From Promethearchaeum syntrophicum (GTDB lineage Archaea; Asgardarchaeota; Lokiarchaeia; Sigyniarchaeales; Promethearchaeaceae), in the NCBI RefSeq assembly GCF_008000775.2, contig NZ_CP042905.2, positions 2,850,001 to 2,882,000 on the forward strand: DNA of 32,000 nucleotides, written 5' to 3'. The notes below the pieces were generated by a model that was not told the DNA's origin, made no database searches, and was given only the letters and a program-made list of their open reading frames with translations. Position numbers and translations under genes: made by a program. Within the stretch, counting starts at the first letter, position 1; the number at the start of each line of letters is the position of its first letter. This document shows positions 1,814 to 28,827 of the stretch, piece by piece.

Positions 1814-1880
1814 TTTACTGAATTTTTTTTTTTATTTTTAAGGAAGGCTGCTAGGTCTTCTGGTTAAAGTTTATTTTTTT

Positions 1881-1974
1881 CTTATTTCTGGTTTATATGT
1901 TCATTTTAGAACAAAGAATCTAATCTAAAATTTTTTAAATTAACGAATTTAGAATTAAATATAATCAATTATTT
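1881..1974 (+). repeat. Intergenic direct repeat, copy A (promoter/leader module upstream of the OppD-like gene)
   Basis: An ungapped hand alignment with 4329-4422 gives 76 of 94 identical positions. The core is AAAGAATCTAA-CTAAAATTTTTTAA...GAATTTA...AAATATAA-CAATTATTT. It contains a TATA-like AAAATTTTTTAA about 50 nt upstream of the ATG at 1989. Confidence 0.7.
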
Positions 1975-1988
1975 TGATATAAGTTGAG

Positions 1989-3251
1989 ATGAAGGTAATG
2001 AGTGAAACTTTGAATTATAAGCAATCTAACGAAAAGCAAGATATCGCAAATAAAACTAGTGAATTCCTTTTAGAGGTAAAAGATTTACGTACATACTTCT
2101 ATACAGAGGAAGGTGTAGTTAAAGCAGTTGATGGTGTTTCTTTTCAAATTAATCATGATGAGATACTTGGATTTGTTGGAGAAACTGGTTGTGGTAAAAG
2201 CGTAACAGCTTTATCTCTATTGAAATTAATCCGAACACCAGGAGAAATATTAAGCGGTGAAATTCTTTTCAATGGAGAAGATATTGTTAAAAAATCTGAA
2301 GACGAAATGTTGAAAATTCGAGGAAATTCAATAACAATGATATTCCAAGATCCTCTAAATTCTTTGAACCCAGTTATAAAAGTTGGAGACCAATTAGCTG
2401 AGGTTTATCTTTTACACCAAATGGAATACTTAGAAGATGAATTAGTCAAAGCTCGTGAGAAAAATAAACGTTTAAAAGAGAATATTAAACGTATGAAAAA
2501 AGAATTGAAAACAGGTTCTTCAGCGGGCTCTGAAACTCTGAAAAATCAGATAAAAGCATTAAAAGAACAAATTAAGTTTAGAATAACTATATTGGATATA
2601 GCCCACAAAGAATCTGCCGCTTTATTAGACAGAATTGGACTTCCAAATGCAGATACAATTATTAATCGATTCCCACATGAATTATCTGGGGGTATGCGTC
2701 AAAGAATTATGATTGCAATGGGTCTTGCATGTAATTCACAATTATTAATTTGTGATGAACCTACAACTGCTTTAGATGTCACCATTCAAGCACAAATCTT
2801 GGATATGATTCGAGAATTGAAGAGAAAACTGAAAAATTCTATTCTATTCATTACTCACTCTCTTGGAGTTATTTATGAGTTATGTGATCGAGTAGCTGTA
2901 ATGTATTCTGGGAATATCGTTGAATATGGAAAAGTTGAGGACATTTATAATAATCCAAAGCACCCATACACAAAAGGCTTAATGGCTGCAATTCCACGTG
3001 TATCAAAAGCATCTCGTGAATCGGAATTGATGATTATTCCTGGAATGGTTCCAAATTTAATATTCCCTCCACGTGGCTGCCGATTTCATCCAAGATGTGA
3101 CCATGCGATGGTAATATGCAAAAAGGTTAATCCTCCATTAAAAGATATGGAGAATAATGTCCAAGTTGCATGCCATCTTTATGATGAAGATAAATCTGAC
3201 CCAGAATTATATCGTAAATTAACAGAAAAGGAGAAAATGGAGGACATATAA
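1989..3251 (+). CDS. oppD: Oligopeptide/dipeptide ABC transporter ATP-binding protein (OppD/DppD type) with an internal coiled-coil insertion
   Basis: Walker A GETGCGKS, Q-loop MIFQDP, signature LSGGMRQR, Walker B LLICDEPTTALD, H-loop ITHSL. It has the OppD/F-type C-terminal HPYT...PPRGCRFHPRC region. Its TAA overlaps the next ATG (TAATG at 3249-3253). Confidence 0.9.
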   Translation: MKVMSETLNYKQSNEKQDIANKTSEFLLEVKDLRTYFYTEEGVVKAVDGVSFQINHDEILGFVGETGCGKSVTALSLLKLIRTPGEILSGEILFNGEDIVKKSEDEMLKIRGNSITMIFQDPLNSLNPVIKVGDQLAEVYLLHQMEYLEDELVKAREKNKRLKENIKRMKKELKTGSSAGSETLKNQIKALKEQIKFRITILDIAHKESAALLDRIGLPNADTIINRFPHELSGGMRQRIMIAMGLACNSQLLICDEPTTALDVTIQAQILDMIRELKRKLKNSILFITHSLGVIYELCDRVAVMYSGNIVEYGKVEDIYNNPKHPYTKGLMAAIPRVSKASRESELMIIPGMVPNLIFPPRGCRFHPRCDHAMVICKKVNPPLKDMENNVQVACHLYDEDKSDPELYRKLTEKEKMEDI

Positions 3252-4282
3252 TGACCAAAGCAACAGGAAAAATAAGAAATGTGTCTATGAAAGTACTTAA
3301 TAAAGAGTATGAGGGACCATTAATTACAGTAAAGAATTTAGCAGTAGATTATCCAATTATCGGCGGGATTTTTATGAGACAAATCGGAACAGTACAAGCT
3401 GTTCGAGATGTATCATTTTCCGTTTATCCTAACGAAACTTTAGGAATTGTAGGAGAATCAGGGTGTGGAAAAACAACTATTGCAAAAGCAATTTTGAATT
3501 TAGTCGAATCATCGAAGGGTGAAATGTATTATAAAGATGTCCGAATCGATAATAATATGAGTAAGAATAAGAATATTCGTCAAAAAATTCAAATGGTTTT
3601 TCAAGATCCGGATGCTTCTTTAAACCCTCGAATGAAAATTGTAGACATCATTGGAGAACCATTACGCAATCTAAGACCTACAATTAAAAATAATGAAATT
3701 CGTAAAATTGTATTAGATCTGTTAAATCAAGTATCAATGAAAAAAGAACATATGGATCGATTTCCCCATGAATTTTCCGGTGGACAGAAACAAAGAATCG
3801 TCATTGCTCGAGCTTTAGCTTGTGAACCAGATGTAATTTGTTTAGACGAACCTACCAGTGCATTAGATGTTTCTGTACAAGCTCAAATCTTGAACCTTCT
3901 TAAAGTATTACAAGAGAGACTAAATTTAGCATATATCTTTATAACCCATGATTTAAGCGTTATCCACCATATTGGAAGTCGAATTGCCGTTATGTATTTA
4001 GGTCTTCTTGTTGAGACAGGAACAATTGATGATATCTTTTACAATACATCTCATCCATATACTAGGGCATTATTATCAGCAAGACCGGCAGTAAATGCGG
4101 AAGAAAAACAACATAAGATTATATTAGAGGGAGAAATTCCATCACCTTCGAATCCACCAACAGGTTGCTCTTTCCATCCAAGGTGCCAAGAAAAAATGTT
4201 ACCCGAATGTAATAAAGAATCACCACATGAGACAATATTATCAGACACACATCATGTTTGGTGTTGGAAATTTGTTAAATAA
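3251..4282 (+). CDS. oppF: Oligopeptide/dipeptide ABC transporter ATP-binding protein (OppF/DppF type)
   Basis: Walker A GESGCGKTT, MVFQDP, FSGGQKQR, ICLDEPTSALD, ITHDL. The C-terminal region is HPYTRALL...PPTGCSFHPRC. It is translationally coupled to the upstream gene. Confidence 0.9.
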   Translation: MTKATGKIRNVSMKVLNKEYEGPLITVKNLAVDYPIIGGIFMRQIGTVQAVRDVSFSVYPNETLGIVGESGCGKTTIAKAILNLVESSKGEMYYKDVRIDNNMSKNKNIRQKIQMVFQDPDASLNPRMKIVDIIGEPLRNLRPTIKNNEIRKIVLDLLNQVSMKKEHMDRFPHEFSGGQKQRIVIARALACEPDVICLDEPTSALDVSVQAQILNLLKVLQERLNLAYIFITHDLSVIHHIGSRIAVMYLGLLVETGTIDDIFYNTSHPYTRALLSARPAVNAEEKQHKIILEGEIPSPSNPPTGCSFHPRCQEKMLPECNKESPHETILSDTHHVWCWKFVK

Positions 4283-4328
4283 TTTTTTTATTTCATTTTG
4301 ATTTTTTTTTAATCCGTTTTTCTAATTT

Positions 4329-4422
4329 CTTACTTCTGGTTTAGGAGTATACTTTCTAATAAAGAATCTAAACTAAAATTTTTTAAGATAAAGAATTTAA
4401 AGTAAAATATAAGCAATTATTT
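4329..4422 (+). repeat. Intergenic direct repeat, copy B (downstream of the OppF-like gene, upstream of the 4529 ORF)
   Basis: See copy A: 76 of 94 positions are identical without gaps. It follows T-rich terminator-like runs at 4283-4320. Confidence 0.7.
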
Positions 4423-17392: not shown

Positions 17393-17584
17393 AAAATTTT
17401 TACCTGAACTAAGGTTTGGGTTTTTTATTACTTTTTTTTTTTGATCTTCTTTTCAAGCTGATATATTCCCTTCTATTGAATGATCAAATATTCCCTTTTT
17501 AGACATTCTTCCTTCTGAGAACAAAATAAGTATTTTCGCCCACATTATAGATAAAAAATAAGAAGGAATAGAACTAATATAATA

Positions 17585-17972
17585 GTGGAAATGGATCACT
17601 TATCTTGGTTGTGCCATTCTATTGTGGTTTTGAGCAATCATGCTTTTATGTCGAAAACCCAATGCGGATCGATATCGAGAAAAACTTTGTCTTCCACAGC
17701 ATTCCCGTCAATTCATAGATTACTCGATATTTGTGAATATGTAAGGATTGTCCTTAATCGGAAAGACTTTTAACGTGCACTAAGCATCAATGCTACGCTA
17801 AGATTAATTTAATAAAAATTTGTCAAAAATCCTTCGGGATAGAACATGGACGGTGCAGGAATTTCCCAATTATTATTGTTTTAACCAAGAACTGTACTAG
17901 AAAACTAAGGATCAAAAAAAAAGGGTTTTAGTCTTTAATGGGGGTCAACGACCCCCAGGCTAAATTTTTTTT
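17585..17972 (+). ncRNA. Candidate unclassified ncRNA in a 684-nt gene-free gap (weak call)
   Basis: This stretch is locally richer in G+C than the surrounding intergenic DNA. It contains an ATCC-TTCG-GGAT hairpin (about 17830-17841) and other short inverted repeats. It ends in a GGGGGTC-AAC-GACCCCC hairpin plus a T8 run. The only ORF here (17585-17773, GTG start) has an atypical composition. Confidence 0.25.
17940..17972 (+). terminator. Stem-loop plus oligo-T terminator-like element
   Basis: GGGGGTC (17940-17946), AAC, GACCCCC (17950-17956), followed by T8 at 17965-17972. On the opposite strand the same hairpin is followed by T9 (complement of about 17918-17926), so it could act in both directions. 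Confidence 0.4.
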
Positions 17973-18076
17973 ATTTTTTAGTTCAATATTCCAATCATGA
18001 CATATCTTGATCCATTTAGGGATACAGCCAGTCCAACTAAATAAAAACTACAAAAACCTTTTTTTTAGGATAGTAA

Positions 18077-20263: not shown

Positions 20264-21997
20264 ATGAAAAACAAACAGTTATACAAAATATCAAAGTATG
20301 CCTATAAAGAAGCATTTTTAGAAAGCCAATTGGAAATGGCAGGAGTAAACCAAGCACAAATTCTCGAAAAAATGGAAAAGAATGCAAAATATATGCGTAC
20401 TCAAGATATAGCAATGAAAATTGTAGTTATGATATATCTTGCATCAATGGTTATTTTACCTGTTCAAGTGTTTGGGCTATTGAATAATACAATTGGGAGA
20501 GGAATACCTGCCCAATGGGCAATTTTTGCAGGTGGAATTTCCTTTAGTATCTTTTTTGCGATTCAGCTAATGTTTTTACTCACATTTGGAGTATATATTT
20601 CATCAGGATTTTTTTCGGGAGAAGAGTTCAAATGGTTATCAACATTACCGCTATCCAAAAAAGAGCTTCATAAGGTAACATTATTTACATTTTTCCGAAC
20701 AGTAGATGCTCAATTTTTTGCTTTAACTCTTGGATTTCCTATTGCTACGTTTTTTGCTACAAAAAACATTCTTATTACTTTCATCAGTCTCATCGTATCT
20801 TTATTGAATATGGTTTTTTCGATTGGGATTCTCGCTGTATTAGGTGAAAAATTACATAGAATAATGAAAAACTCAGATGTAACCTCGAAAAAGGCTTCAT
20901 TAATTCGGGTTTCTGTAATGGTTGGATATGCTGTCTTGACAATAGGGATTGCTTTAAGTTTTAATTTAATAGTTCCTAAAATTGAACCATTTTTTTTGAA
21001 TTATCCTACAAATTTAGATCCATATGAATTTGTAAACAAATTTATTGGAATTATACCCTATCCTTTCAGCGGGGGTTTTTTAATATCAAATTTATATATT
21101 AATTCTCAAGATGTCCCTTTCGCCCAATATTTTACTCCAATTTTAGGAATTATTTTACTAATTATTATAAATCTCCGGTTTTATCGAACTGTAATGAAAA
21201 AGATGAATAATCTTATTTTTAAAAAAACAGGACGATTACAGGATGAGGAAAAACTAAAAATAACCGAAATTAAAGACATAAAACTAATAACCGTAAAACC
21301 TATGAACGCTTTTTTCAAGAGAGATAAAAAAATGGCATCTAGGGATGTCCAAGTTATTATGATGATTGTGATGCCCATTTTATTACCATTCGTTAGTTTT
21401 GCATCCTTGGCGATCGGAGCTGAAGAAATAGGGAAAGATTTCGATATGGTTATTATGTTGATGAATCTCTCATATTGGATGATGAGCGGTGTTATAATAA
21501 TTGTCACTTTACTCAATATTGAAAGTTCTGGTGCAACAATAACTCAAGCGTTACCAATTAATCCTCGAGATCAAGCAATTGCAAAAATTAAATGGCTCTT
21601 GATCATTCTACCAATATCTTCATTTATTTCCCTTGTTCCATTTATTGGAAAAGAAGCTTTCGTAAAAAATTTTATTTATATCCTAATTACAATGAGTCTT
21701 GGACCTTTAACGGGAATTCTCACTTTATTATTACGCGTAAGGTTCTTTGGAAAATTGAAAAATAAATATGTTATGGGAGAAATAAATCTTGGAGCGAAAA
21801 TCTGGAAATGGGTGTTAATTGTTATTGTTGACATTATATTATATATTGTAATAGCAGCGGGATTTGGAATTATTCTATTAACTTATAATTTAGCAATTCT
21901 TTCACTAGTGTTTATTGTAGGCGAAGTAGTAATTCTTTTTATACTTAGTTTTTTTTTCAATCGAATGTTTCCGAAAAAACAAGTTCAAAAAATTTAA
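20264..21997 (+). CDS. Large polytopic membrane protein, putative permease partner of the ABC ATPase
   Basis: 577 aa with many hydrophobic segments. It starts 36 nt downstream of the ATPase on the same strand. No conserved permease motif was recognised. Confidence 0.6.
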   Translation: MKNKQLYKISKYAYKEAFLESQLEMAGVNQAQILEKMEKNAKYMRTQDIAMKIVVMIYLASMVILPVQVFGLLNNTIGRGIPAQWAIFAGGISFSIFFAIQLMFLLTFGVYISSGFFSGEEFKWLSTLPLSKKELHKVTLFTFFRTVDAQFFALTLGFPIATFFATKNILITFISLIVSLLNMVFSIGILAVLGEKLHRIMKNSDVTSKKASLIRVSVMVGYAVLTIGIALSFNLIVPKIEPFFLNYPTNLDPYEFVNKFIGIIPYPFSGGFLISNLYINSQDVPFAQYFTPILGIILLIIINLRFYRTVMKKMNNLIFKKTGRLQDEEKLKITEIKDIKLITVKPMNAFFKRDKKMASRDVQVIMMIVMPILLPFVSFASLAIGAEEIGKDFDMVIMLMNLSYWMMSGVIIIVTLLNIESSGATITQALPINPRDQAIAKIKWLLIILPISSFISLVPFIGKEAFVKNFIYILITMSLGPLTGILTLLLRVRFFGKLKNKYVMGEINLGAKIWKWVLIVIVDIILYIVIAAGFGIILLTYNLAILSLVFIVGEVVILFILSFFFNRMFPKKQVQKI

Positions 21998-22001
21998 ATT
22001 G
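21987..22001 (+). promoter_or_regulatory. Archaeal BRE/TATA promoter of ncRNA copy 1
   Basis: AAAAAATTTAAATTG. The TATA octamer TTTAAATT (21993-22000) ends 22 nt before the first base of the RNA closing stem (22023), so its centre is at about -26/-27. The block is identical to the one upstream of copy 2. It overlaps the stop codon of the upstream membrane-protein gene. Confidence 0.6.
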
Positions 22002-22022
22002 TGAAAACCAAATATTAATACA

Positions 22023-22170
22023 AATCCCTGGCGTTTCTCTTAATTGAGGAAGCTGCAGTGAGACACTGCAGTGGAATACTAAGGAATTCATATTACAATA
22101 CTGATCCATACATGGCGTCTGGATAAGTTTCCGATCGGAGATCGGAAAAATGCTGTAGTTTGCAGGGATT
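22023..22170 (+). ncRNA. Unclassified structured ncRNA, tandem copy 1
   Basis: The closing stem pairs AATCCCTG (22023-22030) with CAGGGATT (22163-22170). A perfect 8-bp hairpin is CTGCAGTG-AGA-CACTGCAG (22053-22071). An imperfect hairpin is TGATCCATAC-ATGGC-GTCTGGATAA. A 9-bp hairpin is TTTCCGATC-GGA-GATCGGAAA (22128-22148). A promoter lies upstream and a T5 run downstream. Confidence 0.6.
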
Positions 22171-22174
22171 ATAC

Positions 22175-22179
22175 TTTTT
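22175..22179 (+). terminator. Oligo-T terminator of ncRNA copy 1
   Basis: A TTTTT run lies 4 nt after the closing stem. Its context (ATTATAC-TTTTT-CC) is conserved with copy 2. Confidence 0.5.
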
Positions 22180-22240
22180 CCATAGCTTTTAATTCTAAAG
22201 AAATTACCAAACTAGTCATAGATCTTTAGTATTTCATACT

Positions 22241-22254
22241 AAAAATTTAAATTG
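22241..22254 (+). promoter_or_regulatory. Archaeal BRE/TATA promoter of ncRNA copy 2
   Basis: AAAAATTTAAATTG is identical to the copy-1 block. TTTAAATT (22246-22253) again ends exactly 22 nt before the RNA start at 22276. Confidence 0.6.
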
Positions 22255-22275
22255 ATAAAATTAAATATAAACTTG

Positions 22276-22425
22276 AATCCCTGGAGTTTCTCTTAATTGA
22301 GGAAGCTGCAGTGAGACACTGCAGTTGAATACGAAGGAATCTATATTACAATACTCATCCATACATGGCGTATGGATGACTTTTTCACACTTTGTGCGAA
22401 AAACATGCTGTAGTTGGCAGGGATT
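22276..22425 (+). ncRNA. Unclassified structured ncRNA, tandem copy 2
   Basis: The architecture matches copy 1. The closing stem pairs 22276-22283 with 22418-22425. The CTGCAGTG-AGA-CACTGCAG hairpin is identical. There is a perfect 10-bp hairpin, TCATCCATAC-ATGGC-GTATGGATGA (22354-22378). The last hairpin is replaced by TTTTTCACAC-TTT-GTGCGAAAAA (22381-22403). The RNA ends 20 nt from the RT stop codon on the opposite strand. Confidence 0.6.
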
Positions 22426-22428
22426 ATA

Positions 22429-22435
22429 TTTTTTT
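22429..22435 (+). terminator. Oligo-T terminator of ncRNA copy 2
   Basis: A T7 run lies 3 nt after the closing stem. Confidence 0.5.
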
Positions 22436-22445
22436 CCTATTATTT

Positions 22446-24020
22446 TTATTTTCTATTTAGTTCTCTTAATTTCTGAAAGAGAAGAGAAAATTTATTTGCT
22501 TTTTCTGGATTCACCATGTGTAAATAGGCAATTTTGCCTTGAAGTTGATTGTAAATGATATCTCCTTCTTCTCCTTGGGGCAATCCAAATTTCTGGTATC
22601 GATATAACTCCCCCCTTAAAGAATTCACCCATTTTCTATCAACATTGAGCTTCTCATTCACTATGATTCCGGTAACTGCCTTTCGATTTCCTTTTCTGAA
22701 TACTTTCGTTTTTTTTAAATTTGGATACAATTTTTCATCCCGAATGATATGATAAACAGATGCAATGAATTTTCTAACTTGGATCTTTTCATTTATTGAT
22801 GAAAAAGTTAGATCATCGGCATACCTTGTATATTTCAAGCCATATTTATTCGCTAATCCATTTATTCTGACATCCATTCTTGAAGCATACAAATTACCAA
22901 TCATGGGACTGGTTGGTGCTCCTTGTGGAACAAATCTTTTTGAGTGATACCAATCAGTACATAAGCAAGCAAGTACACCAGATACTGGCCTGTTATATCC
23001 GATACCTCGAAAAACATGTAGAACATGCCAGAATTTTAATGAGGGAAAGAAATTGAGGAGATCGATTTTTATAAGAGTATTTGCCTTAAGATGAATACGA
23101 GCATTATCTACTGTAGATTTTCCAGGTACAAAACCATAACAATAATCGGGAATTTCCACTTTTTCAAGAATATCCCGTAAAATTTTTAGTTGTAGCTGTT
23201 TTAACCAATAATTCGGGTTTGAAATTAGACGTCTCTTTTTATTTGGAAATTCAATAAATTTATGAGTATAAAATGGACTTTCAAGTTCTTTGAATGATGG
23301 TATTTCAATTTCAGGTTGTTTTTTGGATTTCTTCTTTTTTTCTTCCTTTAATTCTGAGTAAGATTTTTTTATATATCTATAATCATCTGGAATAGTGTTT
23401 TGTCCAAAATTCTCAAACATTTTTTTCCGTTTTATATAATAAGCTGTCCTTTTAGTTTTTTGATTATATGAATAACCCAATAAAGCATTTACTCTAATCT
23501 TAAAATAAAGTGCAAGGTCGATTATTGAATTAAATTGTGGGATGGTATGTTCTGGTTTTAATTTGAAATGGAATTTCTTTTTGAAATGCTTTTTATCATA
23601 AACTTCTTTATTCAAGCCAGGACCGAAATATACCCGTCTTAAAAGAGGAAAAATTTCTTCAATTTGTTTTATCCTTTCATTAGGTAATTCATTTGTATGT
23701 TTGTTAATAATATTAAGCATTGAACGCTTTAGAATGGTGTTTTTTAATGATTTATCACCTGTTCTAAATTTATAATTAATTGTTTTCCTAATAGACTGTA
23801 AATATGTTTTAAAATATTCATCCGAAAGACTTTGAATGTTATAATATATTTCCTTTTCAATGCTTGGTTCATTAGATTTAATATATTTATTCCAACGATA
23901 ATCACCATGTAAATATCCGCTATATCCTAATAATTTGGCGAGACATAAACAAAAAACAAAAATCATGAAAGCGATAATAATAAGACCAGCTGCTTCTCCA
24001 GATAATCCTTCTAATAACAT
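22446..24020 (-). CDS. Reverse transcriptase, retron-like clade, with an N-terminal transmembrane segment and a long N-terminal extension
   Basis: 524 aa. RT motifs 1-3: YTHKFIEFPNKKRRLISNPNYWLKQLQLKILRDIL...GFVPGKSTVDNA...IKIDLLNFFPS. Motif 4: VPQGAPTSPMIGNLY. Motif 5: YTRYADDLTFS. Retron-type motif 7: RKAVTGIIVNEKLNV. The N-terminus has one hydrophobic helix (AAGLIIIAFMIFVFCLCLAKLLGY). About 270 aa, including a Lys-rich stretch, precede motif 1. No endonuclease or group-II maturase domain was recognised. Confidence 0.9.
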   Translation of the reverse strand: MLLEGLSGEAAGLIIIAFMIFVFCLCLAKLLGYSGYLHGDYRWNKYIKSNEPSIEKEIYYNIQSLSDEYFKTYLQSIRKTINYKFRTGDKSLKNTILKRSMLNIINKHTNELPNERIKQIEEIFPLLRRVYFGPGLNKEVYDKKHFKKKFHFKLKPEHTIPQFNSIIDLALYFKIRVNALLGYSYNQKTKRTAYYIKRKKMFENFGQNTIPDDYRYIKKSYSELKEEKKKKSKKQPEIEIPSFKELESPFYTHKFIEFPNKKRRLISNPNYWLKQLQLKILRDILEKVEIPDYCYGFVPGKSTVDNARIHLKANTLIKIDLLNFFPSLKFWHVLHVFRGIGYNRPVSGVLACLCTDWYHSKRFVPQGAPTSPMIGNLYASRMDVRINGLANKYGLKYTRYADDLTFSSINEKIQVRKFIASVYHIIRDEKLYPNLKKTKVFRKGNRKAVTGIIVNEKLNVDRKWVNSLRGELYRYQKFGLPQGEEGDIIYNQLQGKIAYLHMVNPEKANKFSLLFQKLRELNRK

Positions 24021-24173: not shown

Positions 24174-25196
24174 ATGAAAAAATTAATTCTTGTTCAATGG
24201 AATGTTAAAACGGGACCTTTAAACTTGGTTCAATTCCCGCCTGAAGAAGAAATTATTCCAAATGAATTTCTTTTAAAAATCTGGGCAAAACATGAGATGA
24301 ACTCAGATTCTAATTTCTGTTCTTTAAAAGAAGGAAAAAAATATTATTGTTCACTATTAAAAATTCACAAAATAGAAAATCAACCTTATTTTATCATATT
24401 GGAATTGGATGAAAATGATGATGTGCGAATTTTTGAGGAGATTCTAGAAAATATTGCTGAAGATTTAATCCTTAAAGTCGGTAAACCTTATTTTTCTCAT
24501 GTTTTGACAGAAACATATACAACAATTAAACATTATTCAGATTTAGATGAGTTTCAAATATTTTTAAGATTATTTGAGGATAAAAACCGCATAGATATTT
24601 TACATATTTTAAGAAAGGGAGTGATTTCTAAGCCTAAATTAGAACAGAATCTTGAAGAACAATTCGGTTATGCAAATTTAAATCTAGATTTATTACTGAC
24701 TCCTTTCATCAGATTAGGTATGATATCAGTTTTAAATGATCCAGGGAGTAATATATCATTTTATTTAACGTATGATGCTTATGCATGTCGAATACCTCCG
24801 AAACAATCCCCAAAAGTAGTTGATCTAGAACAGAAAATCATAAAATTTTTCTCAATTCCTCAAATCTTAGATGATGATTTACTTCAAGATATCGTGAAGT
24901 TACATCAGCAACCAGGTGTGAAAGAATTAAACTCGCTCTTAAGAGAAGATGTTCCAAATGGAATAGATTATGAGATTGCACTAACTACAGTTAGAAATGA
25001 TCCTACAATATTGGAGGAGCTTGAAAGATTTTCTTTTATTTATATATATGAAGAAAAACAAGTGTTTTTATTTTCTAATTTGCAATTTGTGAAATTTAAT
25101 CCTAGCTATCTTTTGCATATTTTGAAAAAACGTTATGAATCAAAGGAAATTTCTTTAGAACAATTGATTCATCAAATAGAATTTATTTCAAAATAA
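24174..25196 (+). CDS. Hypothetical protein: N-terminal longin/roadblock-like domain plus a probable winged-helix region
   Basis: 340 aa. The N-terminal ~115 aa are paralogous to the 4448-4831 product. The middle segment (NRIDILHILRKGVISKPKLEQNLEEQFGYANLNLDLLLTPFIRLGMISV) looks like a wHTH. The gene is divergent from the RT across a 153-nt spacer. Confidence 0.65.
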   Translation: MKKLILVQWNVKTGPLNLVQFPPEEEIIPNEFLLKIWAKHEMNSDSNFCSLKEGKKYYCSLLKIHKIENQPYFIILELDENDDVRIFEEILENIAEDLILKVGKPYFSHVLTETYTTIKHYSDLDEFQIFLRLFEDKNRIDILHILRKGVISKPKLEQNLEEQFGYANLNLDLLLTPFIRLGMISVLNDPGSNISFYLTYDAYACRIPPKQSPKVVDLEQKIIKFFSIPQILDDDLLQDIVKLHQQPGVKELNSLLREDVPNGIDYEIALTTVRNDPTILEELERFSFIYIYEEKQVFLFSNLQFVKFNPSYLLHILKKRYESKEISLEQLIHQIEFISK

Positions 25197-28100
25197 TTCG
25201 GGCATAGGATATACATTCTGCATTGATTAATAATTGTTTATACTTTTTCAACCGTTTTAATTGTTCAGGTAAGTCGAACTCTAAATTTTCTAAATTTCTC
25301 TCCCATCTTTCACGTTCGTTTTCAAGGTACTGAACTTCTTTCTTAATTTTATTGAAATTTTCCATCCTTTTCTTTTTTCGAGACGTATCACTTATCTTCT
25401 CTAGATTATCTATTTGCCGTTCAGTTGGCATTTTTAACTTTTTGGCTCTTAATTTTTGTTCAATTTTCTGAAGTTGAACTTCTGAAAAATTTTTTTTTTG
25501 TTCTGCTGATTTAATTATTCTTTTACGTTTTTGAAAATAGGAATCTCGATTTAATTTCGTTAATTCCTGTGTTCTTTTTTGAATCCAATTTTTAGTAGAT
25601 TTAATGGAAATATCATAACATTTCTTTAGGAAATCTTCAGATATATGAAAATCTTGTTTAGCATGAGCATAATTCTGATTTTCTGAAATAACTTCATTAA
25701 AATTGTGAGGGCGAGAGATAAAATCTGATAATGATGGAAGTAGGTCAAATTCATCAGAAATAAATACAGGAATGACAATTTTTTCGATAATAATTCCTAA
25801 AAATTTTATTTCAAATAAAAATAGGTTAAGACCTGTTTCATTTCTTAATAACTTCTGAACGATAGGAACTTCTCCAGCTTTTAAACGCACCAAGTAAGGA
25901 TTCATAAAATACGACGCTAGTTTTTTTATATCTAAGAATAGAAGGCTAGCTGACCCTCCAAAATTATCTTTTTTACACCAATCAATTAAATTCATTATTA
26001 ACGGATGGCCTAAAGCATAAAAATCGTATTCTTCTTGATCTTTAGCCAAATCAATGTTAAAAACCCCTTGATATCTTGTGTCTTCAGCTTTCATACATTT
26101 TCGATATTTTTCGGATAAATTTATATTCCAAACTCCTTTGGTTCGAGGGTTATTTTTGATTGCTAATTCAATGGGCAGTTTTTCGTATTTATTTGGGATT
26201 AATTGGTTTTTTTTCATATAATTTGAAAATCTATTGATAAATGAGAAAATATCTATTCCCGATAATAAATCGGGATTATTTATATCTTTCGAGATATAAT
26301 CATACTGAAAAGAACGTTTGTCTAATATAAGATCTTCTAACTTATCATAAATTTCATGAATTTTATTTGATGTTTTTGATATAGTTTCATCTATACGAAA
26401 TTTTCGAGGTATTTCATTATCTTTTAGAACTAGATTAGTAATTTGTCTTTCAAGTTTTCCTAAAATAGGTTCTAAAGCTCCAATAGATTCTTCAAATAAT
26501 TTAATACGATTAAGAATTGCAGTTACAATTGATGATTCAACTGTATCCTTGATGAAAAAATTATAAATTAACACATTTTTTTTTTGACCAAATCGATCAA
26601 GACGTCCAATTCTCTGTTCAAGCCTCATTGGATTCCATGGTAAATCATAATTAACAATAATATGGCAAAATTGGAAATTTCTTCCTTCGCCTCCAATTTC
26701 AGTAGATAATAAAATTGAACCTTCCTGTTTAAATGAAGATACTGATTGATTTTTTTGTTTTTCATCTAAATCTCCATGAAATTGGAAGACTTTGTAACCT
26801 TTTTTCTCGAGTAATCGGGTTAAATAAAAGAGCGTTGCTTTAAACTGTGTAAAAATGATAATTTTTTCATCAGGTGCATCATCCATTATTTCTTGAATTA
26901 TTTCAACTAAATTTTCTGCTTTAGAATCATATTGAAGGTTTTCAAGATCTTTTACAAATTCACGGAGTATTTGGATATGAGTTTTAATATTGAGATTTGT
27001 TTCCTTTTTTGGGATCATTTTACGCTGTCTATTTTTAACAATTATTCGATCTTCTAGATCCAATTCTTCCAATCCCCAAGCATAATCTAAACTTGAATCT
27101 TCATCGGTAAATTCCAGAGATTTTTTGTAATCATCTTGCAATTTTAAAAGTAGATCTTGGTTTTCTTCAAGATATTTTATCCTTTTTTTCATACTTTTTA
27201 GGATTGCAGGAACTGAGCTTGTTAACAATTTCTGTAATATTACCATAACAAAACCTAACCCAGCAGGTCCTGATTCATAATTCTGGGAATAAACTTTTGC
27301 TAGGTAAAGGTGAATTCTGTTATAAACATCCAATTCTTCCTGAGTTAATTCTACCTCAATTACATGAGGGATTCTTCTTACTGGGTTATCTGGAAAAACT
27401 ATTCTACGGCGATTTCTAATTATAAACTTGCTCAAAAAATGTTGATTTTCTAATTTTTGAATTAGAGCTTCCCTATGATGAGGAAATCTTAAGGTTTGAT
27501 CAAATCCATTTGAATCAATATTGATGTTAAATGAGGAAATCTGATATTTAAGAGCATTTCTTTCGTATGTATTTATTCGAGTAAAATTTCGCAGATTTTT
27601 GACTATTGTATTCAATAACGGTATTTTTTTCCTTTCTATTTCAAATGATTCATAGTTACTGAATTCGTAGGGATTTAATAACTGAATTAAAGAAAAGAGA
27701 TCAAAAGAATGAAGCTGAATAGGGGTTGCTGTTAATAATAGTAGACTTTTACTCTTTTCAGATAATTTTTCTGCTAATTCATATGCTAATGTTGTTCGAT
27801 ATTGCCCGGTTTTTTGATTTGTTAGATATCTTCGCAAATGATGAGCTTCATCGAAAATTACAATATCCCATTCCATCTGTGTTAAAATGGAATAACATTG
27901 ATTTAAGCGAGCATATTGCAGAGATACCGTTAATAGTGAATATTCTTTAGAGGACTTTATATGCTGTAAATTTCCTGAATTGTAGTTAATTTTCAATTTT
28001 TTGAGTAAAGCTGAGTTTAATCGAGTAAAATGAAGATTGAATTTATTTTTCATCTCAAACTCCCATTGTCCAGTAATTGAAGCAGGAGTTATGATTAGAA

Positions 28101-28827
28101 TCCGAGAGGCTAAATTTCTTGCAATCATTTCTTTTAGATAAATCCCTGCTTCAATAGTTTTTCCTAGCCCCACCTCATCTGCGAGTATATAGCGAGCGTA
28201 TCCTAATTCTAATAAACTATGGGCTACAGATATTTGATGGGGTAATAAGCTTAATCGAGAATTTGTAATTATTTTGAGTATATTGCTTTCATAAAGATCT
28301 GAAGCCTGAAACGCCCAAAATCTCAGTAAAAATTGATTTTGAGAATCAATATTTCCTTTCAAAAATTCATCGATAGGTGATTGGTATTCAGAGAGTATTT
28401 GTGTCTCTTCAAGACGCATTTTTAATCCTGAAGACGACAAAATTTCATACCTAACAATACCATCGGATTTATCAAGATTATAGGATAAAATTGTTCCGAT
28501 ATCACTTGAATATCGAATTTTTTTTCCAATATCGAAAATATAATGCAATAAATCATTTCTAAAAATTATTTTCTCATGGAATGCTTGAAATTGTACGAGA
28601 TATTTATCTAACTGAATATTAGAAATATCCTTATTTTTTTTATTTGGTAATTTTTCTAAAACATCGATAATTCGTCCGATTCCTAATCCAGGATTATTTC
28701 TAAGAACTACTAAATTTCCTATAAAAAATGAGTGGCTGCGACATTTTAAATTAGGACATATACCTTTTGAAGAAATGTCAATTGATGTTTTGCAGTATTG
28801 GCAAATTTCCGGATAAAATAAGAACAT
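25183..28827 (-). CDS. SNF2-family ATPase, RapA/HepA-like, with an N-terminal zinc ribbon and a long C-terminal extension
   Basis: 1214 aa. Zinc ribbon: CQYCKTSIDISSKGICPNLKC. Tudor-like RapA-style N-terminus: GNLVVLRNNPGLGIGRIIDV. Helicase motifs: LLPHQ, ILADEVGLGKTIEAG, FDEAHHLR, LLLTATPIQ, QRIGRLDRFGQK. About 450 C-terminal aa end in a K/E-rich coiled coil. Confidence 0.9.
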   Translation of the reverse strand: MFLFYPEICQYCKTSIDISSKGICPNLKCRSHSFFIGNLVVLRNNPGLGIGRIIDVLEKLPNKKNKDISNIQLDKYLVQFQAFHEKIIFRNDLLHYIFDIGKKIRYSSDIGTILSYNLDKSDGIVRYEILSSSGLKMRLEETQILSEYQSPIDEFLKGNIDSQNQFLLRFWAFQASDLYESNILKIITNSRLSLLPHQISVAHSLLELGYARYILADEVGLGKTIEAGIYLKEMIARNLASRILIITPASITGQWEFEMKNKFNLHFTRLNSALLKKLKINYNSGNLQHIKSSKEYSLLTVSLQYARLNQCYSILTQMEWDIVIFDEAHHLRRYLTNQKTGQYRTTLAYELAEKLSEKSKSLLLLTATPIQLHSFDLFSLIQLLNPYEFSNYESFEIERKKIPLLNTIVKNLRNFTRINTYERNALKYQISSFNINIDSNGFDQTLRFPHHREALIQKLENQHFLSKFIIRNRRRIVFPDNPVRRIPHVIEVELTQEELDVYNRIHLYLAKVYSQNYESGPAGLGFVMVILQKLLTSSVPAILKSMKKRIKYLEENQDLLLKLQDDYKKSLEFTDEDSSLDYAWGLEELDLEDRIIVKNRQRKMIPKKETNLNIKTHIQILREFVKDLENLQYDSKAENLVEIIQEIMDDAPDEKIIIFTQFKATLFYLTRLLEKKGYKVFQFHGDLDEKQKNQSVSSFKQEGSILLSTEIGGEGRNFQFCHIIVNYDLPWNPMRLEQRIGRLDRFGQKKNVLIYNFFIKDTVESSIVTAILNRIKLFEESIGALEPILGKLERQITNLVLKDNEIPRKFRIDETISKTSNKIHEIYDKLEDLILDKRSFQYDYISKDINNPDLLSGIDIFSFINRFSNYMKKNQLIPNKYEKLPIELAIKNNPRTKGVWNINLSEKYRKCMKAEDTRYQGVFNIDLAKDQEEYDFYALGHPLIMNLIDWCKKDNFGGSASLLFLDIKKLASYFMNPYLVRLKAGEVPIVQKLLRNETGLNLFLFEIKFLGIIIEKIVIPVFISDEFDLLPSLSDFISRPHNFNEVISENQNYAHAKQDFHISEDFLKKCYDISIKSTKNWIQKRTQELTKLNRDSYFQKRKRIIKSAEQKKNFSEVQLQKIEQKLRAKKLKMPTERQIDNLEKISDTSRKKKRMENFNKIKKEVQYLENERERWERNLENLEFDLPEQLKRLKKYKQLLINAECISYARIILK

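What the first reader, a model, noticed from the sequence alone, without database searches (positions are those of the whole stretch)
21987..22435. Two tandem ~150-nt structured RNA genes, each a self-contained archaeal transcription unit
Two copies (22023-22170 and 22276-22425) share the same layout. Each has an identical 14-nt AAAAATTTAAATTG block whose TATA octamer ends exactly 22 nt before the RNA. That places the TATA centre at about -26/-27, the canonical archaeal spacing. Each RNA is closed by an 8-bp terminal stem (AATCCCTG/CAGGGATT). Each has three or four internal hairpins, including a perfect CTGCAGTG-AGA-CACTGCAG. Each ends 3-4 nt before an oligo-T run (T5 or T7). Conservation of promoter, spacing, fold and terminator argues for expressed plus-strand RNAs rather than repeat debris. 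I do not recognise the fold as tRNA, C/D or H/ACA sRNA, SRP RNA or RNase P RNA.
Basis: seen in the sequence. Interest (0 to 1): 0.8.

Follow-up and report, generated by a model that had tools for sequence, protein, structure and literature searches.

The report
Tandem retron RNA genes, Asgard archaeon
The two ~150-nt structured RNAs are real, and they are most likely the primer/template RNAs of the retron-type reverse transcriptase gene that ends 20 nt away on the other strand, which makes this an unusually organised archaeal version of a bacterial antiviral retroelement.

Summary
A 253-bp unit is duplicated, giving RNA copies at 22023-22170 and 22276-22425. Each has the same AT-rich promoter-like block, a terminal 8-bp stem, internal hairpins and a trailing oligo-T.

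ORF 22446-24020 (-) is a retron-family reverse transcriptase (RT). It carries NAxxH, YADD and VTG, and its best solved relative is Ec86 RT.

I identified the same RNA in 21 of 22 distinct RT-homologue loci from Promethearchaeota (Asgard), across about 10 unrelated gene neighbourhoods. It was always on the strand opposite the RT, in one or two copies. Covariation is strong: 29 of 40 pairs have compensatory changes. G-U pairs fix the strand as window +.

The anatomy matches a retron msr-msd RNA:
- a closing a1/a2 stem;
- an invariant G just 3' of a1, facing an invariant G 5' of a2;
- a conserved 5' module;
- hypervariable 3' hairpins.

It departs from canonical retrons in five ways:
- the RNA is an autonomous opposite-strand gene;
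- the msd-like part has two or three hairpins;
- some loci carry tandem paralogues;
- no accessory effector gene is conserved;
- the RT has an N-terminal membrane anchor plus an Asgard-only domain.

Expression and msDNA synthesis are untested. I rate it a new variant of a known kind.

The parts
21988..22001 (+). Promoter-like block of copy 1 (A-rich BRE-like run plus TTTAAATT TATA-like octamer)
   Evidence: Identical 14-mer in both copies. The octamer ends 22 nt before the RNA start. The block AAAA(A/G)(A/T)TTTAAATT is conserved at the same distance in 12 close homologues while sequence further upstream diverges.
22023..22170 (+). RNA copy 1 (148 nt), distal to the RT gene; putative retron msr-msd RNA
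   Evidence: Fold z = -4.2. CM R1 scores 168 bits, E = 2e-36. Nearest counterpart is L161 2835-2982, the RT-distal copy in a locus whose RT is 92% identical to the window RT.
22023..22030 (+). a1 arm of the terminal stem, copy 1 (pairs with 22163-22170)
   Evidence: The stem covaries across the family: AAUCCCUG/CAGGGAUU, GUCCCUG/CAGGGAC, GACUCUG/CAGAGUC, AGCUUUG/CAAAGCU, AGCCCUG/CAGGGCU.
22031..22031 (+). Candidate priming (branching) G, copy 1; first unpaired base 3' of a1
   Evidence: Invariant in all 24 RNAs of alignment A4 (column 8). The context TGGC/TGGT/TGGA resembles the retron TAGC/CAGC/GAGC/ACGC motif (PMC6868368). The role is inferred.
22034..22051 (+). Hairpin P2, copy 1 (UUUCUC-UUAAUU-GAGGAA)
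   Evidence: Compensatory CUC/GAG to CCA/UGG changes. Helix 2 is 100% paired, with 4 of 6 pairs changed on both sides. Other subgroups replace it with stems of 2-7 bp, several capped by GNRA-type tetraloops.
22053..22071 (+). Hairpin P3, copy 1 (CUGCAGUG-AGA-CACUGCAG); the most conserved hairpin of the family
   Evidence: Helix 3 is 98.8% paired, with 5 of 9 pairs changed on both sides and recurrent G-U pairs that are valid only on this strand.
22073..22103 (+). Conserved, mostly single-stranded linker, copy 1 (GGAAUACUAAGGAAUUCAUAUUACAAUACUG)
   Evidence: 88% mean pairwise identity within the close group. Motifs GGAYUACGAAG and ACAAUA persist in RNAs whose RTs are only 44-47% identical.
22104..22124 (+). 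Variable hairpin P4, copy 1 (msd-like)
   Evidence: All 7 modelled pairs change on both sides across the family. The sequence is entirely different in L002, L003b, L161b and L005, with the stem kept.
22128..22148 (+). Variable hairpin P5, copy 1 (UUUCCGAUC-GGA-GAUCGGAAA)
   Evidence: All 10 modelled pairs change on both sides. It differs completely from P5 of copy 2.
22162..22162 (+). Invariant G facing the candidate priming G, immediately 5' of a2, copy 1
   Evidence: Invariant column 44 of A4. It corresponds to the 'two opposing G residues' of retron ncRNAs (PMC7736814).
22163..22170 (+). a2 arm of the terminal stem, copy 1
22175..22179 (+). Oligo-T (T5) terminator-like run after copy 1
   Evidence: Most homologues carry a run of 5 or more T within about 15 nt after a2.
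22241..22254 (+). Promoter-like block of copy 2
22276..22425 (+). RNA copy 2 (150 nt), proximal to the RT gene. a1 22276-22283, candidate priming G 22284, P2 22287-22304, P3 22306-22324, P4 22357-22377, P5 22381-22403, opposing G 22417, a2 22418-22425
   Evidence: Fold z = -5.3. CM R1 scores 172.6 bits.
22429..22435 (+). Oligo-T (T7) terminator-like run after copy 2, 10 nt before the RT stop codon on the other strand
22446..24020 (-). Retron-family reverse transcriptase gene (524 aa), convergent with the RNA genes. Motifs: NARIH 23091-23105, QGAPTSP 22905-22925, YADD 22812-22823, VTG 22668-22676
   Evidence: Pfam RVT_1 4e-21. PADLOC RT_XIII 1.6e-89. PDB profile search: best hit Ec86 RT at 9e-60, against group II intron RT at 4e-11 and DRT2 at 2e-5. 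The AF2 model's top 18 Foldseek hits are all retron RTs. N306, A307, H310, YADD, T450 and G451 are invariant in 23 homologues.
23922..23993 (-). N-terminal hydrophobic helix of the RT (residues 10-33); predicted membrane anchor
   Evidence: The best 19-residue Kyte-Doolittle window scores 2.0-3.6 within the first ~35 residues of all 19 full-length homologues. It is modelled as a long helix.
23550..23915 (-). Asgard-specific helical N-terminal domain of the RT (residues 36-157)
   Evidence: A search with residues 36-245 found only 10 hits among 1.84 billion representatives. The hits already seen here are members of this RT family; the three new ones are short fragments. Profile homology to bacterial type XIII RTs starts only at residue ~158.

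Best explanation
The two RNAs are the cognate non-coding RNAs of the adjacent retron-family reverse transcriptase, and they are built like retron msr-msd RNAs.

Each copy is its own archaeal transcription unit: a BRE/TATA-like block, a ~150-nt RNA and an oligo-T terminator. Each is transcribed towards the 3' end of the RT gene.

Proposed mechanism:
1. The 5' and 3' ends pair (a1/a2). This places the invariant G just after a1 (22031 in copy 1, 22284 in copy 2) opposite the invariant G just before a2.
2. The conserved 5' module (P2, P3, linker) is what the RT recognises.
3. The RT uses the 2'-OH of that G to prime cDNA synthesis on the 3' part (tail, P5, P4). The product is a small branched RNA-DNA molecule (msDNA) of roughly 60-70 nt of DNA.
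4. P4 and P5 differ between the two tandem genes, so one RT would make two different msDNAs.
5. By analogy with bacterial retrons, the RT-msDNA complex probably acts as a sensor in antiviral defence. No accessory gene is conserved, so the membrane-anchored, lineage-specific N-terminal domain of the RT is the best candidate for the output module.

Shown: a real covarying RNA structure, the strand, obligate linkage to the RT, and retron signatures in both the RT and the RNA. Inferred: transcription ends, 2'-OH priming, msDNA extent and biological role.
For: 1. The RT is retron-type. PADLOC's best model is RT_XIII at 1.6e-89. The PDB profile search puts Ec86 RT first at 9e-60, with group II intron and DRT2 RTs far behind. 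The Foldseek top 18 hits are all retron RTs. The retron-specific regions X (NAxxH) and Y (VTG) are invariant (definition from PMC7736814). Its nearest bacterial relatives sit in genuine WGR-SWIM-RT type XIII operons.

2. Linkage. CM R1, built from 6 sequences, finds the RNA at 146-174 bits in all 9 other distinct close loci (L001-L003, L161-L165, L167). It also finds it at E = 2e-7 to 3e-12 in L005 (two copies), L006, L082, L168 and L169, whose RTs are 38-47% identical. Model R2 finds it in L172 and L004/L081 (~1e-5) and marginally in L173/L174, L170 and L007 (E 0.06-0.09), at the positions I had found by eye. Neighbouring genes differ in about 10 contexts, including PmbA/TldD, MFS/RnfC-like, TPR, EamA/NUDIX, an EF-G-like GTPase/CCA-adding enzyme and GDPD. 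RT plus RNA is therefore the only conserved unit. There were no hits in 100 bacterial RT loci, in viral contigs or elsewhere in the window.

3. Structure and strand. Compensatory changes occur in 13 of 40 pairs in a plain MAFFT alignment and in 29 of 40 in the 19-sequence alignment, which is 95% paired against 42-50% when slid. The a1/a2 stem covaries fully. There are 54 G-U cells, and reverse-strand pairing would be 88.5%.

4. Retron RNA hallmarks. There is a terminal a1/a2 stem. An invariant G lies 3' of a1, facing an invariant G 5' of a2 ('two opposing G'). The context TGGC resembles TAGC/CAGC. The 5' module is conserved at 87-88% identity, while P4+P5 reach only 59%. Paralogues within one locus are 92-98% identical in the 5' module (77% in the more diverged L005 pair) against 32-58% in P4+P5. 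The longer family members carry a canonical long hairpin, for example a 23-bp perfect stem in L004.
Against: - No transcript or msDNA data exist here.
- The gene arrangement breaks the textbook definition of a single msr-msd-RT cassette on one strand. The RNA is always on the opposite strand: convergent in most loci, divergent-upstream in L173/L174 and L082.
- The msd-like part is two or three hairpins and not one long stem.
- No accessory effector is conserved, and no type XIII partner (SWIM, HEAT/WGR) is present.
- Nothing in Rfam release 15 matches at E up to 10 locally, so any retron msr family in that library does not match either.
- R1 finds nothing next to bacterial type XIII RTs, so homology of the RNA to known msr-msd RNAs is not shown. 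Only the architecture is alike.
- Copy 2 contains an internal T5 (22381-22385) that could cause premature termination in an archaeon; 6 of 24 family members have such a run.
- No RNA was found in L008, where only ~700 nt upstream of the RT is available.
- Detection in the 190-210-nt subgroup was partly manual and has marginal E-values. L171 was found by eye only.
Confidence: 0.65

Rival explanations
1. The RNA is the RT's partner but is not used in the retron way. It could be a scaffold or regulator of the RT, or a template for a different product, as in DRT2 (rolling-circle cDNA) or DRT9 (homopolymer synthesis).
For: The linkage to the RT is firm, but the chemistry is untested. The gene arrangement, the multi-hairpin 3' part and the absence of an effector gene all differ from canonical retrons. 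The conserved single-stranded linker and the U-run/A-run base of P5 have no assigned role.
Against: The RT is much closer to retron RTs than to DRT2 or DRT9 (9e-60 against 2e-5; ranking). It keeps the retron-specific NAxxH and VTG regions. The a1/a2 stem with opposed invariant Gs is the specific geometry of 2'-OH priming. A hypervariable hairpin region is a poor fit for a coding or homopolymer template.
Confidence: 0.2
2. The RNAs are an independent small regulatory or housekeeping RNA family that merely lies next to the RT gene.
For: They have their own promoter-like and terminator-like signals. Within the genus, the whole neighbourhood is syntenic.
Against: The RNA follows the RT through about 10 unrelated neighbourhoods, and no other neighbour is retained. 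It was never seen without the RT, in the window or in any fetched locus. It carries retron-like priming geometry.
Confidence: 0.05
3. The element works on the minus strand as a 3'-UTR or terminator structure of the RT mRNA, or as an insulator between convergent genes.
For: It begins 0-90 nt after the RT stop codon in most loci. The reverse complement also forms hairpins.
Against: There are 54 G-U cells, including conserved wobble positions, that would become A-C mismatches on the minus strand (95.0% against 88.5% paired). Promoter-like and oligo-T signals are conserved on the + strand. In L173/L174 and L082 the element lies upstream of the RT yet still on the opposite strand, so it cannot be part of the RT mRNA there. 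In L172 it is 1.3 kb away.
Confidence: 0.03
4. The copies are repeat debris, a MITE, or a template/variable repeat pair of a diversity-generating retroelement (DGR).
For: There are two ~87% identical copies with terminal inverted repeats, next to an RT.
Against: Only two copies exist in the window, both beside the RT, with no target-site duplications. No copies occur in viral contigs. Covariation shows selection on RNA structure. Differences between the copies are not adenine-specific, neither copy lies in a target gene, and the RT is retron-type, not DGR-type.
Confidence: 0.02

Closest known systems
Type XIII retrons (RT clade 10; Mx162, Mx65, Sa163, Ne144; Mestre et al. 2020, PMC7736814)
   Same: The best-scoring RT model is RT_XIII. 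The nearest bacterial homologues (34-41% identity) lie in WGR-SWIM-RT type XIII operons. RT profile homology extends from the HTH-like segment at residue ~158 to the C-terminus. The RT carries an N-terminal extension. Inheritance looks largely vertical and chromosomal, as reported for type XIII. The RNA has an a1/a2 stem, a priming-type G in an NxGC context (Mx162/Sa163 have CAGC), and msr-like hairpins followed by variable hairpins.
   Different: There is no SWIM/DEDE partner or HEAT/ARM partner. The RNA gene is a separate unit on the opposite strand, in one or two copies. The RNA is much shorter (131-211 nt, against a 241-nt Mx162 transcript). The msd-like part has two or three hairpins. The N-terminal 157 residues (membrane helix plus helical domain) are unique to the Asgard family. 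CM R1 gives no hits beside bacterial relatives.
Retron-Eco1 (Ec86), the structurally best-characterised retron
   Same: It is the closest solved RT by sequence (9e-60) and by fold (Foldseek 1.5e-17, target TM-score 0.74). The RNA logic is the same: a terminal stem, a priming G immediately 3' of a1 followed by C, and a G 5' of a2. The Ec86 sequence details are from my own memory; the general scheme is from PMC6868368.
   Different: Ec86 is a bacterial type II-A3 system with an NDT effector. Its ncRNA lies upstream of the RT on the same transcript, and its msd is a single long hairpin. The Ec86 RT has ~320 residues and no membrane anchor.
DRT2 / DRT9 (UG-class defence RTs with dedicated ncRNAs)
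   Same: Both are two-component RT plus structured ncRNA systems without a separate effector gene, in which the RT product itself is the output.
   Different: RT similarity is weak (2e-5 for DRT2; DRT9 only at Foldseek rank 30). Those ncRNAs lie upstream on the RT strand (from my own memory). They have no a1/a2 stem with opposed Gs and no hypervariable hairpins.
Type IV retron (Ec48) with a 2-TM membrane effector
   Same: It links a retron to the membrane (Table 1 of PMC7736814).
   Different: There the transmembrane protein is a separate gene and the RT belongs to clade 3. Here a single predicted helix is fused to the RT N-terminus. A functional analogy is pure inference.

Membership tests
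Retron (RT + msr-msd ncRNA) | RT of the retron clade with region X (NAxxH) and region Y (VTG) | tested here: met
   NARIH at residues 306-310 and VTG at 449-451. N306, A307, H310, T450 and G451 are invariant in 23 homologues. Retron HMMs, PDB sequence hits and fold hits all rank first. The NCBIfam retron models score below their curated cut-offs, so this is a divergent member.
Retron (RT + msr-msd ncRNA) | ncRNA whose 5' and 3' ends pair (a1/a2, ~8-30 nt), enclosing the msr and msd structures | tested here: met
   A terminal stem of 7-10 bp occurs in every member and covaries.
Retron (RT + msr-msd ncRNA) | Conserved priming guanosine at or just 3' of the a1 arm, opposed by a G 5' of a2 | tested here: met
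   The G after a1 and the G before a2 are invariant in 24 RNAs (A4 columns 8 and 44) and also in L173. Their positions fit the scheme; the chemistry is untested.
Retron (RT + msr-msd ncRNA) | msr with 1-3 short hairpins, and msd as one long stem-loop | tested here: inconclusive
   The msr-like hairpins P2 and P3 are present. The msd-like region holds two hairpins of 8-13 bp in the window-type RNAs and two or three hairpins in the longer RNAs, one of them with up to ~23-25 bp.
Retron (RT + msr-msd ncRNA) | msr-msd and RT form one contiguous cassette on the same strand | tested here: not met
   The RNA is on the strand opposite the RT in all 21 loci where I identified it. It is convergent-downstream in most and divergent-upstream in L173/L174 and L082.
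Retron (RT + msr-msd ncRNA) | Production of msDNA with a 2'-5' RNA-DNA branch | not testable with these tools
   This needs biochemistry or cDNA sequencing.
Retron (RT + msr-msd ncRNA) | Third component: an accessory effector gene or a domain fused to the RT | tested here: inconclusive
   No conserved neighbouring gene was found. An N-terminal membrane helix plus a family-specific domain is fused to the RT, but its function is unknown.
Type XIII retron | Associated WH/SWIM (cluster 114) protein and HEAT/ARM-WGR protein | tested here: not met
   PADLOC finds SWIM_XIII and WGR_XIII next to bacterial relatives. tblastn with those proteins finds nothing in the window or in 24 Asgard loci.
Type XIII retron | RT belongs to clade 10 | tested here: inconclusive
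   RT_XIII is the best PADLOC model (299 bits, against 248 for the next), and the nearest bacterial relatives are type XIII. No phylogeny was computed.
Known RNA families in Rfam 15 (including tRNA, C/D and H/ACA sRNA, SRP RNA, RNase P RNA and any retron msr family it holds) | Match to a curated covariance model | tested here: not met
   There were no matches at gathering thresholds and none at E <= 0.05 in the window. Only chance-level hits (E 0.29-8.3) appeared in 21800-22600. ARAGORN found no tRNA.
Diversity-generating retroelement (TR/VR pair) | Adenine-specific differences between a template repeat and a variable repeat inside a target gene, plus a DGR-type RT | tested here: not met
   Substitutions between the copies are of all types, both copies are intergenic, and the RT is retron-type.
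MITE / dispersed repeat | Many scattered copies with target-site duplications | tested here: not met
   There are two copies only, both beside the RT. Homologues are found only beside RT genes. The whole genome was not available.

The most novel reading that the evidence does not exclude
Lokiarchaeial (Asgard) archaea carry a lineage-specific, chromosomally inherited retron reduced to two parts. One is a membrane-anchored RT with a unique N-terminal domain. The other is one or more autonomous opposite-strand RNA genes. The hypervariable P4/P5 hairpins act as exchangeable msDNA specificity cassettes, so tandem paralogues let one RT display two different msDNAs. This would be the first archaeal retron with a defined ncRNA, and it would work without any separate effector.
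Probability: 0.4. Interest if true: 0.75.

Novelty: new variant of a known kind. Interest (0 to 1): 0.6.

Why it matters
Retrons have been characterised only in bacteria. Retron-type RTs make up about 4% of known archaeal RTs (PMC8632793). In six full-text searches I found no paper describing an archaeal retron ncRNA or msDNA.

Three things follow if the reading is right:
- It gives a concrete, testable RNA partner, with predicted priming G, template and transcript ends, for an RT family confined to the archaeal lineage closest to eukaryotes.
- It shows that the msr-msd RNA need not be co-transcribed with the RT. Retron-finding pipelines that scan only upstream on the RT strand, or that require a known accessory gene, would miss such systems.
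- The RNAs are compact (131-150 nt) and have a naturally swappable hairpin module under a simple archaeal promoter. That is of practical interest for retron-based DNA production and editing.

The membrane-anchored RT and the paired paralogous RNAs also raise mechanistic questions about where the complex acts and how it signals.

Tried and rejected
- **Rfam and tRNA.** Rfam at gathering and permissive thresholds and ARAGORN gave nothing. The weak PreQ1, snoR4, SL2 and RAGATH-7-assoc hits (E 0.29-8.3) are chance.
- **DGR template/variable repeat.** Rejected because the substitutions are not adenine-specific, there is no target gene, and the RT is retron-type.
- **MITE.** Rejected.
- **Minus-strand or RT 3'-UTR element.** Rejected on G-U pairs and on the divergent-upstream loci.
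- **SNF2 helicase or 340-aa neighbour as effectors.** Both are syntenic only within the genus and absent from every distant RT locus, so neither counts as part of the system.
- **Type XIII partners.** SWIM and WGR were not found. The 72-aa WGR ORF in L171 is isolated.
- **Viral or mobile copies.** One degenerate pattern gave 35 chance hits, none confirmed by the CM. Exact P4 and P5 sequences gave 0 hits. A linker 17-mer gave 2 chance hits.
- **Homologous RNA beside bacterial type XIII-like RTs.** None in 100 loci.
- Tandem Repeats Finder did not report the two-copy array. The afdb50 fold library was unavailable, so the fold of the N-terminal domain was not compared beyond the PDB.
- **Not run.** I considered a rolling-circle (DRT2-like) ORF test on the template region but did not run it.

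Full report
**Observation**

The repeat finder reports one direct-repeat family, 21988-22130 / 22241-22383, at 87% identity and 253-nt spacing. It starts exactly at the shared block AAAAATTTAAATTG, and no further copy exists in the 32-kb window. The coordinates of the terminal stems, hairpins and T runs were verified. Both 148/150-nt RNAs fold much better than dinucleotide shuffles (z = -4.2 and -5.3). The two copies align at 88% mean column identity with their flanks included. One hairpin (22128-22148 against 22381-22403) has a completely different sequence but keeps its stem. Rfam and ARAGORN find nothing.

**The missing context**

The ORF at 22446-24020 on the minus strand ends 20 nt from copy 2 and is a reverse transcriptase (RT). 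It matches Pfam RVT_1. The best PADLOC model is retron RT_XIII at 1.6e-89. NCBIfam retron models match below their cut-offs.

A profile of 23 homologues hits the retron Ec86 RT at 9e-60, far ahead of group II intron RTs (4e-11) and DRT2 (2e-5). An AlphaFold model (pLDDT 76.5) has retron RTs as its top 18 Foldseek hits in the PDB. The retron-specific NAxxH and VTG motifs, together with YADD, are invariant (definitions in PMC7736814).

Full-length homologues (40-92% identity) are all from Promethearchaeota/Lokiarchaeota. The next-best hits are bacterial RTs that cover only the RT half. These bacterial relatives sit in genuine type XIII retron operons, WGR-SWIM-RT. No such partner genes occur in the window or in the Asgard loci.

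**Linkage of the RNA to the RT**

I fetched loci around RT homologues. A covariance model built from six sequences (R1) found the RNA in these places:
- In all 9 other distinct close loci (L001-L003, L161-L165, L167), at 146-174 bits, immediately downstream of the RT and on the opposite strand. Each has one or two copies.
- In L005 (two copies), L006, L082, L168 and L169, whose RTs are 38-47% identical, at E = 2e-7 to 3e-12.
- In longer (190-210 nt) versions in L004/L081, L007 and L170-L172, recognised by eye. A second model, R2, partly confirmed these: about 1e-5 for L172 and L004, and 0.06-0.09 for L170 and L007. L171 was found by eye only.
- In L173/L174 and L082, where the RNA lies upstream of the RT but again on the opposite strand. 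R2 scored L173/L174 at E 0.06.

Only L008 showed no RNA, and that locus has little flanking sequence. In total the RNA was identified in 21 of the 22 distinct RT loci, counting the window and treating L004/L081, L165/L166 and L173/L174 as duplicates.

Neighbouring genes are fully syntenic within the genus but unrelated in the other loci: PmbA/TldD, MFS/RnfC-like, TPR, EamA/NUDIX, an EF-G-like GTPase/CCA-adding enzyme and GDPD. RT plus RNA is therefore the only conserved unit. R1 finds nothing beside 100 bacterial RT homologues, nothing in viral contigs, and nothing elsewhere in the window.

**Structure and strand**

A plain MAFFT alignment of six RNAs already shows 13 of 40 predicted pairs with compensatory changes. 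The 19-sequence alignment fitted to R1 gives these figures:
- 95% of pair cells are paired.
- 29 of 40 pairs change on both sides.
- No shuffle in 500 reaches the observed percentage paired, compensatory-pair counts or covariation score.
- Pairing falls to 42-50% when partners are slid by 1-3 columns.

A 24-sequence mini-alignment of a1/a2 plus P3 is 99.4% paired, and the terminal stem covaries completely. I extracted that alignment using the structure as a guide, so it leans towards pairing.

There are 54 G-U cells, several at conserved positions. The reverse strand would pair only 88.5% against 95.0%. Homologues also keep an AT-rich TATA-like block roughly 24-36 nt upstream of a1 and, in nearly all cases, an oligo-T run shortly after a2. 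Together these place the RNA on the window + strand. Internal runs of five or more T are absent from 18 of 24 RNAs.

**Anatomy and interpretation**

The family layout, from 5' to 3', is:
- a1 (7-10 nt);
- an invariant G;
- NGU;
- P2;
- P3, with consensus approximately GCNGCGAUG-NNN-CAUCGYGGY;
- a conserved linker (GGAAUACGAAGG...ACAAUA);
- two or three variable hairpins;
- a semi-conserved tail;
- an invariant G;
- a2.

This is the architecture of retron msr-msd RNAs. Their ends pair, a priming guanosine sits just 3' of the a1 arm in a TAGC/CAGC/GAGC/ACGC context, and a second G opposes it. The msr carries short hairpins that the RT recognises, and the msd is variable (PMC6868368; PMC7736814). 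In this family the context of the candidate priming G is TGGC, TGGT or TGGA.

Conservation is modular. Within the close group, the 5' module and the tail are 87-88% identical, against 59% for P4+P5. Paralogues within one locus are 92-98% identical in the 5' module (77% in the more diverged L005 pair), against 32-58% in P4+P5.

I therefore propose that each RNA is transcribed on its own, folds, and is bound by the RT through P2, P3 and the linker. The RT would then reverse-transcribe from the 2'-OH of G22031 or G22284 through the tail, P5 and P4, giving one msDNA per RNA gene. Priming, msDNA extent and biological role are inferences.

**Departures from known retrons**

1. The RNA is never on the RT strand, so it cannot be the 5' leader of the RT mRNA.
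2. The msd-like part is split into two or three hairpins. The longer versions do contain stems of 23-25 bp.
3. Four of the loci carry two paralogous RNA genes with different P4 hairpins; P5 also differs in three of them.
4. No effector gene is conserved.
5. Every full-length RT has a hydrophobic N-terminal helix, followed by a helical domain at residues ~36-157. A search with residues 36-245 found only 10 matches among 1.84 billion representative proteins. The hits already seen here are members of this RT family; the three new ones are short fragments. This domain lies outside the region homologous to bacterial type XIII RTs.

The surrounding window is ordinary chromosome and not a mobile element: pyruvate formate-lyase, NadA, H+-pyrophosphatase and ABC transporters.

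**Literature**

Retron-type RTs are reported as about 4% of archaeal RTs (PMC8632793). Six full-text searches found no description of an archaeal or Asgard retron ncRNA, or of a retron RNA encoded on the strand opposite the RT. The library is incomplete, so prior description cannot be excluded.

**Verdict**

The most likely identity is a pair of retron msr-msd RNA genes belonging to an Asgard-specific, membrane-anchored retron RT. This is a new variant of a known kind. My confidence that the RNAs are the RT's cognate partners is about 0.85 to 0.9. My confidence in the retron-type mechanism overall is about 0.65. Interest is 0.6.

Noticed in passing
window 25183-28827 (-): A 1214-aa SNF2-family helicase with a Cys-rich N-terminus. 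Its best matches are the defence-system helicases BrxH, DrmD and DpdE, and also RapA, all below the curated cut-offs. No other DISARM, BREX or Dpd genes were seen nearby. It is syntenic with the RT only within the genus.
   Followed up: partly
window 24174-25196 (+): A 340-aa protein with no Pfam, PADLOC or NCBIfam match. It is transcribed divergently from the RT, with a 153-nt gap, and its 3' end overlaps the SNF2 gene's 3' end by 14 nt. It is 85-93% conserved in close Promethearchaeum loci and absent next to distant RT homologues.
   Followed up: partly
window 1878-1974 and 4326-4422: A 97-nt AT-rich direct repeat (81% identity) flanks the two-gene block at 1989-4282, whose first gene encodes an oligopeptide-type ABC ATPase. 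It could be a duplicated promoter or regulatory region.
   Followed up: no
window 17393-18076: A stretch of about 680 nt between the H+-pyrophosphatase gene and the next gene has no convincing ORF (only a 62-aa GTG ORF) and no Rfam match.
   Followed up: no
L170 4471-4681 (-), L171 4057-4264 (-), L172 5716-5907 (-): The long (190-210 nt) RNA versions carry a recurring palindromic RAAAUUUY motif at the bases of their variable hairpins. For example, GGAAAUUUCC ... GGAAAUUU extends the long stem to about 25 bp. Its role is unknown.
   Followed up: no
window 22381-22403 (P5 of copy 2) and the homologous P5 hairpins: P5 usually has a U-run 5' arm and an A-run 3' arm (UUUUYC...GRAAAA). On the minus strand the A-run reads as an oligo-T, which could terminate read-through of the RT mRNA. 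On the + strand, 6 of 24 RNAs have an internal run of 5-6 T.
   Followed up: partly
L171 4621-4839 (+): A 72-aa WGR-domain ORF lies just beyond the RNA gene in one distant locus. WGR is a domain of the type XIII retron accessory protein. It is not seen in any other Asgard locus, so it may be coincidental.
   Followed up: partly
L173 140-784 (-): A 214-aa gene called by the source annotation covers the position of the RNA (about 518-695) upstream of the RT. It has no Pfam match and may be a spurious call over the RNA gene.
   Followed up: no
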